A stretch of DNA of 64,000 nucleotides, taken from Escherichia phage vB_EcoM_Alf5. Shown here piece after piece: positions 1,531-1,702 of this stretch. The notes beneath the pieces are model-generated. The model was not told where the DNA came from. It saw only the letters and a list, made by a program, of their open reading frames with translations, and ran no database searches. The stretch lies in sequence record KX377933. One strand, given 5' to 3'. The stretch's first letter is position 1. Every line of letters starts with the position of its first letter. Position numbers and translations under genes: made by a program.

Positions 1531-1702
1531 TAAGATGATAAACAACGGTCTGGTAATTATCTTTGTAGATAAGTTATTAAGCTTACCTGTGAGTATGCGA
1601 CCACAAAGGGTGAAAGGGTAAATTCTAGATTTAAACCCAAAAAGGCACATCGCTACAGACCTTAAGCAAGTCTGGGTAGCTTATCTACAAAGATAATTTA
1701 AT

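What the first reader, a model, noticed from the sequence alone, without database searches (positions are those of the whole stretch)
1555..1698. 19-bp perfect inverted repeat enclosing a ~105-nt structured segment inside the tRNA array
AATTATCTTTGTAGATAAG (1555-1573) is perfectly complementary to 1680-1698, with G-U-containing extension, and encloses a tRNA-free segment that has its own internal hairpin (GGGTAAATTCTAGATTTAAACCC). A long perfect stem between tRNA genes fits an RNase III-type processing hairpin or a small structured RNA; the antisense ORF 1327-1650 here is not credible.
Basis: seen in the sequence. Interest (0 to 1): 0.5.

Follow-up and report, generated by a model that had tools for sequence, protein, structure and literature searches.

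The report
Conserved structured RNA in phage tRNA array
The inverted repeat is real: it closes a 144-nt, evolutionarily conserved folded RNA in the tRNA operon of a Felix O1-like phage, next to previously unannotated Y-RNA-like elements and a Ro60-like anti-defence gene, but its function is untested.

Summary
Bases 1555-1573 and 1680-1698 are perfectly complementary, and G-U pairs extend the helix to 24 bp. This is the longest local inverted repeat in the 64 kb; shuffled sequence reaches 11-15 bp.

The window is a Felix O1-like phage (Felixounavirus). The element, here called H1, occurs in about 240 relatives as 20 sequence variants of two head types. The closing helix and two inner hairpins keep pairing through compensatory changes and one paired indel. 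G-U pairs place the structure on the + strand RNA. Two loops are invariant: AUUCUAGAUU and AGCAA. No Rfam family matches.

Context changes the reading. The window starts with the 3' end of a DUF2828/vWA gene whose predicted fold matches Ro60. Its Bas63 homologue, gp130, counters the Ppl defence. Four repeated elements (E1-E4) lie between the first tRNAs. Each has a bulged helix plus ACAGCAA, and E4 encloses a YrlA-type tRNA mimic. The same motif flanks DUF2828 genes in distant phages. H1 abuts E4, and its 3' arm is a miniature E motif.

Best reading (about 0.4): H1 is a processed non-coding RNA of this Ro60-like/Y-RNA-like system. RNase III cleavage of its stem is plausible but untested.

The parts
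1555..1578 (+). H1 closing helix P1, 5' strand (19 Watson-Crick pairs, then 5 pairs including G-U)
   Evidence: Covariation: 4 pairs changed on both sides, and one paired indel at alignment columns 15/137.
1675..1698 (+). H1 closing helix P1, 3' strand. It ends 4 nt (UAAU) before tRNA-Lys(UUU).
1583..1613 (+). P2, the 5' hairpin of the head. Its sequence is not conserved between the window-type (W) and pSJ21/Mooglevirus-type (S) heads.
   Evidence: MFE folds; alignments.
1616..1638 (+). P3, the central hairpin. The apex AUUCUAGAUU, which contains the self-complementary UCUAGA, is invariant in all 20 variants, while the stem covaries.
   Evidence: (4 covarying pairs in S-type variants).
1644..1654 (+). 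Small 3-bp hairpin predicted only in the W-type fold. Weak.
1656..1674 (+). P4: CAGAC / CUUAAGCAA / GUCUG, a miniature E motif. The loop AGCAA is invariant and the stem shows a G-C to A-U covariation.
   Evidence: The compact pattern AGAC..AGCAA..GTCTG occurs once in the 64 kb, against 0.04 expected.
1652..1680 (+). Alternative E-like module: outer helix 1652-1655 / 1677-1680 stacked on P4, with a GG bulge. It excludes the top 6 pairs of P1.
   Evidence: 100% of cells paired in 17 variants. Column 133 covaries with both column 19 and column 103.
1419..1556 (+). E4, the element directly abutting H1. From outside in: outer helix, AGA/G internal loop, inner helix AGACCGUU/AACGGUCU, ACAGCAA, then a permuted tRNA-like core (V hairpin, T arm, closed acceptor hairpin, D arm). 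This is a YrlA-type architecture.
   Evidence: MFE fold. The acceptor-like stem covaries in Mooglevirus. The architecture follows PMC4201824.
1333..1411 (+). E3 element (GAGC / AGA / AGACCAA .. AUUCAGCAA .. UUGGUCU G GCUC)
878..947 (+). E2 element
712..789 (+). E1 element
1..380 (+). 3' end (C-terminal 125 aa) of the DUF2828/DUF7788 (vWA) gene, which is Ro60-like by predicted fold
   Evidence: The Bas63 homologue is gp130 (PMC11482910).
1703..1778 (+). tRNA-Lys(UUU). RNase P cleavage at its 5' end would define the 3' end of H1.
   Evidence: The RNase P step is inferred from general tRNA processing.

Best explanation
H1 (1555-1698) is a + strand structured RNA of about 144 nt. A 24-bp closing helix carries a three-hairpin, cloverleaf-shaped head.

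It is transcribed from the strong promoters at about 399 and 490 as part of the first tRNA operon of a Felix O1-like phage. This much is shown or follows directly from the sequence.

The following steps are inferred:
- RNase P cutting at tRNA-Lys (1703) sets its 3' end.
- The long helix makes the ends resistant to exonucleases.
- The helix is also a likely entry site for host RNase III, which would separate H1 from the Y-RNA-like element E4 upstream.
- H1 works as a non-coding RNA of the system formed by the neighbouring Ro60-like protein and the E1-E4 Y-RNA-like elements.

The reasons for the last inference are these. The P4 arm with its flanks reproduces the E motif: an AG..CU helix followed by G, an AGCAA loop and an outer helix. 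This motif is the probable recognition site of the Ro60-like protein. The invariant P3 apex (UCUAGA) and the long helix would then be modules that engage something else, or mediate dimerisation, in the way the second module of a Y RNA tethers a partner.
For: The structure is real:
- P1 is far beyond chance.
- 97% of pair cells are kept in 17 distinct variants, against 29-47% for slid controls.
- Both-sided changes occur in P1, P3 and P4, plus a paired indel.
- G-U pairs fit only the + strand, and the covariance model scores 140 bits on the + strand against 38 bits on the - strand.

The head is constrained. The W and S heads differ at most positions, yet AUUCUAGAUU and AGCAA are invariant in 20 variants.

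It is transcribed. Promoter-like sites lie at 399 and 490, and no terminator-like site on the + strand lies before 1952.

Context:
- The upstream gene is DUF2828 + DUF7788.
- Its AF2 model has pLDDT 87.5, and the 12 best PDB matches are all Ro60/TROVE, with E about 1e-8 and TM up to 0.64.
- The Bas63 homologue gp130 is reported as Ro60-like and as a Ppl counter (PMC11482910).

The E motif:
- E1-E4 share a bulged helix plus ACAGCAA, and their outer helices covary between paralogues.
- The same motif is enriched next to DUF2828 genes in distant phages: 105 on the gene strand against 19 on the opposite strand, with 24-34 in shuffles, in 50 of 75 loci.
- In those phages it often ends just before the gene's ribosome-binding site.
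- Inserts in E4 and in distant copies are YrlA-like. The Rfam YrlA model gives sub-threshold hits of 39, 33 and 27 bits.

The link to H1:
- E4's outer helix overlaps H1's first 2 nt.
- P4 is AGAC..AGCAA..GUCUG, unique in 64 kb against 0.04 expected.
- The E-like outer helix is 100% preserved.
Against: - No expression, end-mapping or binding data exist.
- H1 has no tRNA-like module, lacks the AGA bulge of E1-E4, and has UUA/UUU-AGCAA where they have ACAGCAA.
- A model of H1 finds no relative in 75 distant DUF2828 loci or in a 47%-identical relative, L015. H1 is therefore not a general partner of this protein family.
- gp130 counters Ppl when moved alone into T7, so at least that activity needs none of these RNAs.
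- One natural isolate, SP116, lacks H1 together with tRNA-Lys.
- Stems with the same base sequence (AUCUUU..AAAGAU) precede three other tRNAs. This argues that P1 has a generic processing role.
- Most covariation events map to one split, W against S types.
Confidence: 0.4

Rival explanations
1. H1 is a purely cis-acting processing element. It acts as an RNase III site, or as a 3'-end exonuclease block and folding insulator, that separates the upstream E3/E4 RNAs from tRNA-Lys. The head has no function of its own.
For: - The uninterrupted helix is 19-24 bp.
- Paralogous stems with the same base AUCUUU..AAAGAU lie 4-8 nt upstream of the first tRNA of each sub-cluster: H3 at 2145-2179 before tRNA-Arg, H2 at 3116-3205 before tRNA-Leu, and a short stem at 4411-4441 before tRNA-Gln.
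- H2 is also conserved, with covariation.
- AU-rich single-stranded spacers after the stems resemble RNase E sites. This rests on general knowledge and was not tested.
Against: - A processing stem does not need a 100-nt head whose hairpins covary and whose two loops stay invariant while the rest of the head is replaced between the W and S types.
- The paralogous stems range from 6 to 26 bp, so RNase III cannot be the common denominator.
- P4 copies the E motif.
Confidence: 0.3
2. H1 is a trans-acting non-coding RNA or decoy unrelated to the Ro60-like protein. Examples would be a decoy for a host dsRNA-binding or tRNA-targeting factor, or a regulator that acts through loop-loop pairing.
For: - The loops are conserved and the P3 apex UCUAGA is self-complementary.
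- The conserved H2 apical loop UUGUUGCUU contains UUGCUU, the reverse complement of the AAGCAA in the W-type (window) P4 loop; S-type loops share only AGCAA.
- H1 is confined to Felixounavirus and Mooglevirus, whereas the protein family is widespread.
Against: - No target was identified.
- No similar sequence exists in 5,426 E. coli genomes.
- The resemblance of P4 to the E motif and the position abutting E4 argue for a link with the Y-like cluster.
Confidence: 0.2
3. H1 is a DNA-level feature: a miniature transposable element with terminal inverted repeats, a protein-binding palindrome or origin, or an intrinsic terminator.
For: It has perfect 19-bp terminal inverted repeats around a 106-bp core, and the core differs between lineages like an exchanged cassette.
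Against: - There is a single copy in the window and none in E. coli genomes.
- It sits at the same locus in all relatives.
- No target-site duplication is visible (GGT | AATTATC .. GATAATT | TAA).
- The arms covary rather than being conserved, and they include conserved G-U pairs that would be A-C mismatches on the other strand.
- No U-tract follows, and the scan calls no terminator there. Termination would also cut off three downstream tRNAs.
Confidence: 0.04

Closest known systems
Bacterial and phage Y RNAs (YrlA/YrlB, Rfam RF02553) with Ro60/Rsr (Chen et al. 2014, PMC4201824; Thermus phage phiLo Yrl1/Yrl2, PMC12135203)
   Same: - H1 is encoded close to a Ro60-fold gene.
- Its 5' and 3' ends pair into a long stem that carries a modular head.
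- It sits among several small RNAs that share one short motif, one of which (E4) has the V-T-acceptor-D tRNA mimic that defines YrlA.
   Different: - H1 itself has no tRNA-like module and no GNCGAA(N)G or CGAA motif. Only 2 of 20 S-type variants happen to contain GCCGAAG.
- It has no bulged conserved helix at its termini.
- It gets no Rfam hit.
- The protein is DUF2828, recognisable as Ro60 only by fold.
- The RNAs are embedded in a tRNA operon.
RNase III processing hairpins of polycistronic phage and rRNA transcripts (T7 early R sites, rRNA operon stalks; from general knowledge)
   Same: A double-stranded helix of 20 bp or more lies inside a multi-gene primary transcript in an enterobacterial host, between two functional RNAs.
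   Different: - Classical sites are short hairpins with internal loops and no conserved head.
- H1's head is about 100 nt, with covarying arms and invariant loops.
- Cleavage was not tested.
Small stable RNAs encoded inside phage tRNA clusters (T4 species 1 and 2 RNAs, rnaC/rnaD; recalled from memory, not checked here)
   Same: These are non-tRNA structured RNAs of about 120-140 nt, co-transcribed and co-processed with phage tRNAs, whose function is still unknown.
   Different: No sequence or structure comparison was possible with these tools. To my knowledge T4 has no DUF2828/Ro60-like neighbour.
E-motif elements described here (window E1-E4 and copies next to DUF2828 genes in distant phages)
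   Same: The P4 arm has the AG..CU helix followed by G, an AGCAA-containing loop and a possible 4-5-bp outer helix, with the same AGACC/GUCUGG letters as E1-E4.
   Different: - P4 has no AGA bulge.
- UUA or UUU replaces the AC before AGCAA.
- There is no insert.
- The motif is internal to a larger RNA rather than closing it.

Membership tests
YrlA / Y RNA-like (Rfam RF02553) | Match to the family covariance model at the gathering score (69 bits) | tested here: not met
   No YrlA hit at E <= 10 in 1270-1705 on either strand or in 1-6500.
YrlA / Y RNA-like (Rfam RF02553) | T-arm-like and D-arm-like stem-loops flanking an acceptor-like stem-loop | tested here: not met
   H1's arms have no GGUUCGAAUCC-type T loop or D loop. 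The neighbour E4 does have them.
YrlA / Y RNA-like (Rfam RF02553) | GNCGAAN0-1G motif near the 5' end (PMC4201824) | tested here: not met
   The motif is absent from the window's H1. GCCGAAG occurs in only 2 of 20 variants, inside the head.
YrlA / Y RNA-like (Rfam RF02553) | Encoded next to a Ro60 orthologue | tested here: met
   The Ro60-fold gene ends at 380, on the same strand and in the same region.
YrlA / Y RNA-like (Rfam RF02553) | Bound by the Ro60 protein | not testable with these tools
   Needs RIP or EMSA.
RNase III substrate | About two turns (roughly 20 bp or more) of uninterrupted double helix | tested here: met
   19 Watson-Crick pairs plus 5 further pairs including G-U. All 20 variants have 23-24 bp, some with one mismatch near the base.
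RNase III substrate | rnc-dependent cleavage in vivo or in vitro; no antideterminant base pairs in the proximal and distal boxes | not testable with these tools
   No cleavage data exist. The antideterminant rules were not applied.
E-motif elements (defined here) | Inner helix that starts AG and ends CU, followed by G | tested here: met
   AGAC (1657-1660) / GUCU (1670-1673) + G1674. S-type variants have AGACC or AAACC.
E-motif elements (defined here) | (A/U)CAGCAA 0-3 nt after the 5' strand of the helix | tested here: inconclusive
   AGCAA is invariant, but it is preceded by UUA or UUU, not AC or UC.
E-motif elements (defined here) | Outer helix separated from the inner helix by a 5' AGA (or AA) / 3' G internal loop | tested here: inconclusive
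   The outer helix GCUA/UAGC is possible and 100% kept. However, the loop is 0 nt on the 5' side and GG on the 3' side.
tRNA | Cloverleaf with D, anticodon and T arms detected by ARAGORN or the Rfam tRNA model | tested here: not met
Miniature inverted-repeat transposable element | Terminal inverted repeats with a target-site duplication and multiple copies | tested here: not met
   Inverted repeats are present, but there is no duplication, a single copy and none in E. coli genomes.
Intrinsic terminator | GC-rich stem followed by a U tract | tested here: not met
   The stem base is AU-rich, the tail is UUUAAU, and the scan does not list it.

The most novel reading that the evidence does not exclude
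H1 and the E1-E4 elements are the missing RNA partners of a large, sequence-divergent Ro60 clade (DUF2828) that is spread through tRNA-carrying phages. The bulged AG..CU helix with (A/U)CAGCAA would be the clade's recognition site. H1 would be a lineage-specific composite Y RNA whose long helix and UCUAGA loop recruit or sequester a host factor, such as RNase III or another dsRNA-binding protein, during the phage's defence against host immunity.
Probability: 0.25. Interest if true: 0.8.

Novelty: new variant of a known kind. Interest (0 to 1): 0.6.

Why it matters
Felix O1-like phages are classical typing and therapy phages, yet the 430-nt gap in their tRNA array has only ever been annotated with spurious antisense ORFs.

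A recent screen showed that the adjacent Ro60-like protein (Bas63 gp130) defeats the Ppl defence system. Its authors guessed that some 'tRNA genes' might be Y RNAs. The present analysis points instead to unannotated spacer elements: four E elements, including one YrlA-type tRNA mimic, and the H1 hairpin RNA.

It also shows that the E motif accompanies DUF2828 genes in distant phages. That gives concrete RNAs and point mutations with which to test how a viral Ro60 works.

If H1 proves to be only a processing stem, it would still be useful. It would be a conserved, well-defined RNase III or exonuclease-barrier module in phage tRNA operons.

Tried and rejected
- **Known RNA families.** Rfam 15 at permissive thresholds on 1-6500 and on 1270-1705 gave nothing in H1 on either strand. 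I considered self-cleaving ribozymes by eye (hairpin for the E elements, hammerhead for H1); neither core motif is present, and Rfam, which includes those models, found none.
- **Remote homologues of H1.** A covariance model of H1 (R1) searched over the window and 75 distant DUF2828 loci found only itself. The 47%-identical relative L015 has E elements but no H1-like hairpin.
- **Other sequence searches.** blastn of the head against 50,697 phage records found only Felixounavirus. The search against E. coli genomes found nothing.
- **Coding potential.** The + strand mini-ORFs differ between the W and S types. The antisense ORF is not conserved.
- **Promoter in the 3' arm.** GATAAT lies 6 nt before tRNA-Lys, but there is no usable -35 element and the scan does not list it.
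- **Anticodon-like reading of the P3 loop.** UUCUAGA could be read as anticodon CUA. The stem geometry does not support this and no other tRNA features are present.
- **Ro60 by sequence.** A sequence search of the DUF2828 profile against PDB reached Ro60 only at E = 0.87. The fold comparison was needed.
- **Literature.** No paper in the library links DUF2828 to Ro60. No transcriptome of a Felix O1-like phage was found. The PhageMaP supplements, which should hold fitness values for bas63_0137 and bas63_0138, are not held.

Full report

Yes. Bases 1555-1573 are the exact reverse complement of 1680-1698. The repeat finder extends the arms to 22 nt at 95%. RNA folding extends the helix to 24 pairs by using G-U pairs (1555-1578 with 1675-1698).

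The 144-nt element folds at -47.8 kcal/mol. Its z-score is -6.2 against dinucleotide shuffles, and none of 200 shuffles folds as well. A 19-bp perfect inverted repeat with a loop of 200 nt or less is the longest in the whole 64-kb window. In 30 dinucleotide shuffles of the window the longest was 11-15 bp.

The two best local inverted repeats of the window both lie in the tRNA array. No tRNA is detected inside the element.

**2. Where does the window come from?**

The region 1280-1720 matches 250 phage records. All are Felix O1-like myoviruses (Ounavirinae: Felixounavirus and Mooglevirus), and 238 of them cover at least 80% of the query. The head of the element is 100% identical in phage Felix O1 itself. 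There, and in Bas63, only antisense 'hypothetical' ORFs are annotated over it.

The window begins with the last 125 codons of a 471-aa protein. It continues with a + strand array of 24 or more tRNA genes, driven by strong sigma-70-like promoters at about 399, 490 and 1952. No terminator-like site on the + strand lies between 490 and the element. The element, which I call H1, is therefore transcribed on the + strand with the first nine tRNAs.

**3. Phylogenetic test of the structure.**

I collected 20 distinct sequence variants of H1 from GenBank phages and IMG/VR contigs. They fall into two head types:
- W: the window and most Felixounavirus.
- S: pSJ21, HK3 and Mooglevirus.

The heads differ at most positions, but all variants fold into the same shape:
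- a 23-24-bp closing helix, P1;
- a 5' hairpin, P2;
- a central hairpin, P3;
- a 3' hairpin, P4.

On a 17-sequence alignment, 97% of pair cells are standard pairs, against 29-47% when partners are slid by 1-3 columns. P1 has four pairs changed on both sides and one pair deleted on both sides. P4 has a G-C to A-U exchange. Within S-type variants four P3 pairs covary.

Several invariant pairs are G-U, which would be A-C on the other strand. A covariance model scores the + strand at 140 bits and the - strand at 38 bits. Two loops are invariant in all variants, although the surrounding head has been almost completely rewritten:
- the P3 apex AUUCUAGAUU, which contains the self-complementary UCUAGA;
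- AGCAA in the P4 loop.

There is one caveat. Many of the compensatory changes coincide with the single W/S split, so the number of independent events is small.

**4. What it is not.**

- Rfam 15 gives no hit at E <= 10 on either strand.
- It is not a tRNA, and it is not an intrinsic terminator: the base is AU-rich, no U tract follows, and three tRNAs downstream depend on read-through.
- It is not a mobile element. There is a single copy, it sits at the same locus in all relatives, it has no target duplication, nothing similar exists in 5,426 E. coli genomes, and the arms covary rather than being conserved.
- It is not coding. The antisense ORF 1327-1650 crosses a T-arm and is called differently in Felix O1 and Bas63. 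The + strand mini-ORFs are not shared by the W and S types.

**5. The surroundings change the picture.**

(a) *The upstream gene.* Its full-length homologue carries Pfam DUF2828 and DUF7788 and falls in PHROG 850, 'RNA-binding protein'. An AlphaFold model built on 32 homologues has pLDDT 87.5. All 12 of its best PDB matches are Ro60/TROVE proteins: Thermus phage phiLo Ro60, Xenopus and human Ro60, and Deinococcus Rsr. E-values are about 1e-8 and TM-scores reach 0.64 over about 520 columns. By sequence alone Ro60 is reached only at E = 0.87.

The PhageMaP preprint reports the same structural similarity for the Bas63 homologue gp130. It shows that gp130 counters the Ppl defence, even when moved alone into T7. 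It speculates that 'some tRNA genes ... are possibly Y RNAs' (PMC11482910).

(b) *Repeated elements E1-E4.* Four spacers of the array hold a repeated element: E1 712-789, E2 878-947, E3 1333-1411 and E4 1419-1556. Each folds as follows:
- an outer 4-bp helix, which covaries between the paralogues (UGAC/GUCA, UUAC/GUAA, GAGC/GCUC);
- an internal loop, 5' AGA / 3' G;
- an inner 7-8-bp helix, AGACC.. / ..GGUCU;
- the single-stranded motif (U)ACAGCAA;
- a variable insert.

(c) *E4's insert.* It is a permuted tRNA-like core: a variable hairpin, a T arm (GAAGGUUCGAUUCCUUC), an acceptor-like stem closed by a tetraloop, and a D arm. This is exactly the V-T-AS-D order that defines YrlA-type bacterial Y RNAs (PMC4201824). 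The acceptor-like stem covaries: CUCGGCA/UGUCGAG in the window becomes CCCUUC..GAAGGG in Mooglevirus, where it is even followed by GCCA.

(d) *The motif is not confined to this phage group.* I examined 75 loci from distant phages whose DUF2828 proteins are about 40% identical.
- The pattern 'AG-helix, AGC(A/G)A, helix-CU, G' occurs 105 times on the gene's strand in 50 loci. It occurs 19 times on the other strand and 24-34 times in shuffles.
- Copies stand in tandem. Their helices all differ in sequence.
- The last copy often ends a few bases before the ribosome-binding site of the DUF2828 gene.
- Several inserts contain the same T/acceptor/D core. The Rfam YrlA model hits these cores below threshold, at 39, 33 and 27 bits, matching only the central part of the model.

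I conclude that E elements are a Y-RNA-like class tied to this divergent Ro60 clade. This is an inference from association and architecture, not from binding data. I found no description of them in Rfam or in the paper library.

**6. How H1 relates to that system.**

H1 starts where E4 ends. E4's outer helix (GUAA, 1553-1556) overlaps H1's first two bases.

H1's P4 reads CAGAC-CUUAAGCAA-GUCUG. This is the E inner helix (AGAC../..GUCU + G) with an AGCAA loop and no insert. The compact pattern AGAC..AGCAA..GTCTG is unique in the 64 kb, against 0.04 expected per shuffle. The pattern was defined after seeing it.

The bases flanking P4 (GCUA 1652-1655 and UAGC 1677-1680) can form an outer helix, as in E elements. 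This 9-bp bulged helix is paired in 100% of cells in 17 variants. Column 133 covaries both with its partner in P1 (G-C to C-G) and with its partner in the alternative helix (G-C to U-G). So the top six pairs of P1 and the E-like outer helix may be alternative conformations.

There are also differences from E1-E4:
- H1 has no AGA bulge.
- UUA or UUU stands in place of AC before AGCAA.
- A model of H1 finds nothing in the distant loci or in the 47%-identical relative L015, which has E elements with a UCAGCAA core but no H1.

**7. A second layer: P1 belongs to a set of leader stems.**

Stems with the base AUCUUU..AAAGAU end 4-8 nt before the first tRNA of each sub-cluster:
- H1 before tRNA-Lys at 1703;
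- a 16-bp stem at 2145-2179 before tRNA-Arg at 2185;
- a 26-bp stem, H2 (3116-3205), before tRNA-Leu at 3207;
- a 6-bp stem at 4411-4441 before tRNA-Gln at 4446.

H2 is conserved across genera with some covariation. This argues that the base of P1 has a generic role in processing. After RNase P cuts at the tRNA, such a stem would sit at the 3' end of the upstream RNA and block 3' exonucleases. The longer stems are also plausible RNase III substrates. Both points rest on general knowledge of enterobacterial RNA processing and were not tested.

**8. Verdict.**

*Shown:*
- H1 is a real, conserved, + strand RNA structure of a kind not in Rfam, restricted to Felix O1-like phages.
- It sits inside a cluster of Y-RNA-like elements downstream of a Ro60-fold gene.

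*Inferred (about 0.4):* H1 is excised as a stable RNA and belongs functionally to that system through its E-like arm. P1 provides nuclease-resistant ends and a likely RNase III entry site.

*Main rival (about 0.3):* H1 is only a processing or insulating stem. This reading leaves the constrained head unexplained.

*Against a strict dependence on these RNAs:*
- gp130 acts against Ppl on its own in T7.
- Phage SP116 has lost H1 together with tRNA-Lys and half of E4.

Noticed in passing
window 712-789, 878-947, 1333-1411, 1419-1556; also L020, L022, L030, L031, L059, L065, L067, L070, L084, L088, L015: A repeated 'E' element: an outer helix, an AGA/G internal loop, an AG..CU inner helix, (A/U)CAGCAA and a variable insert. 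There are four copies in the window. It is enriched on the gene strand next to DUF2828 (Ro60-fold) genes in 50 of 75 distant phage loci (105 against 19 on the opposite strand). It often ends just before the gene's ribosome-binding site, which suggests autoregulation or co-processing. It is not in Rfam.
   Followed up: partly
window 1419-1556 (core 1457-1530): E4 encloses a circularly permuted tRNA-like core: a V hairpin, a T arm, an acceptor stem closed by the AGAU loop, and a D arm. This is the YrlA architecture. Some GenBank records annotate part of it as tRNA-Thr. The Rfam tRNA model hits 1445-1495 at 22 bits, and the YrlA model does not hit it. The Mooglevirus copies have a covarying acceptor stem followed by GCCA.
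   Followed up: partly
window 1-380: This is the C-terminal 125 aa of a DUF2828/DUF7788 protein. The AF2 model of its homologue matches only Ro60/TROVE structures at the top of the PDB search. It is the homologue of Bas63 gp130, a reported counter of the Ppl defence system.
   Followed up: yes
window 3116-3205, 2145-2179, 4411-4441: Three further stems share the base AUCUUU..AAAGAU with H1. Each ends 4-8 nt before the first tRNA of a sub-cluster (Leu 3207, Arg 2185, Gln 4446). H2 (3116-3205) is a 26-bp stem conserved across genera with covariation.
   Followed up: partly
window 3160-3178 (H2 apical hairpin) versus 1661-1669: H2's apical loop UUGUUGCUU is invariant. It contains UUGCUU, the exact reverse complement of AAGCAA in the W-type (window) P4 loop; UUGCU alone complements the AGCAA core shared by S-type P4 loops and the E elements. 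This could be a loop-loop contact or coincidence.
   Followed up: no
window 2185-2263 and 2768-2842: ARAGORN missed two tRNA-like genes. The first is tRNA-Arg(UCU), annotated in relatives, with an Rfam tRNA score of 31.7 bits. The second is an odd tRNA-like sequence with a CCA (Trp) anticodon region and a 3' end reading ..AUGCCA, which scores only 23 bits against the tRNA-Sec model.
   Followed up: no
window 1306-1330 and 4689-4713: A repeated small hairpin, AAGRGUUCUUACGAGWAUYCUU, shows compensatory differences between its two copies. One copy lies just before E3 and the other lies directly before tRNA-His.
   Followed up: no
window 3613-3707: A 95-nt hairpin before tRNA-Val contains ACTGAAGACCGT, which is 92% identical to the 5' part of E2 and E4, but it has AACAAAU in place of ACAGCAA. 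It may be a decayed E copy.
   Followed up: no
window 2281-2628: A small Cys-rich ORF sits inside the tRNA array (MKTCIRCK...CSNCHRVRHAKY). It looks like an HNH homing endonuclease, and relatives carry annotated HNH genes at varying places in the array.
   Followed up: no
window 1952-1980: A near-consensus sigma-70 promoter (TTGACA, 17 nt, TATAGT) lies right after tRNA-Ile. It splits the array into at least two transcription units. The 200 nt that follow gave weak tmRNA-like Rfam hits, far below threshold.
   Followed up: no
L008 (Salmonella phage SP116) versus window 1495-1768: A natural deletion removes the 3' half of E4, all of H1 and tRNA-Lys(UUU). These elements are therefore dispensable under at least some conditions.
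   Followed up: partly
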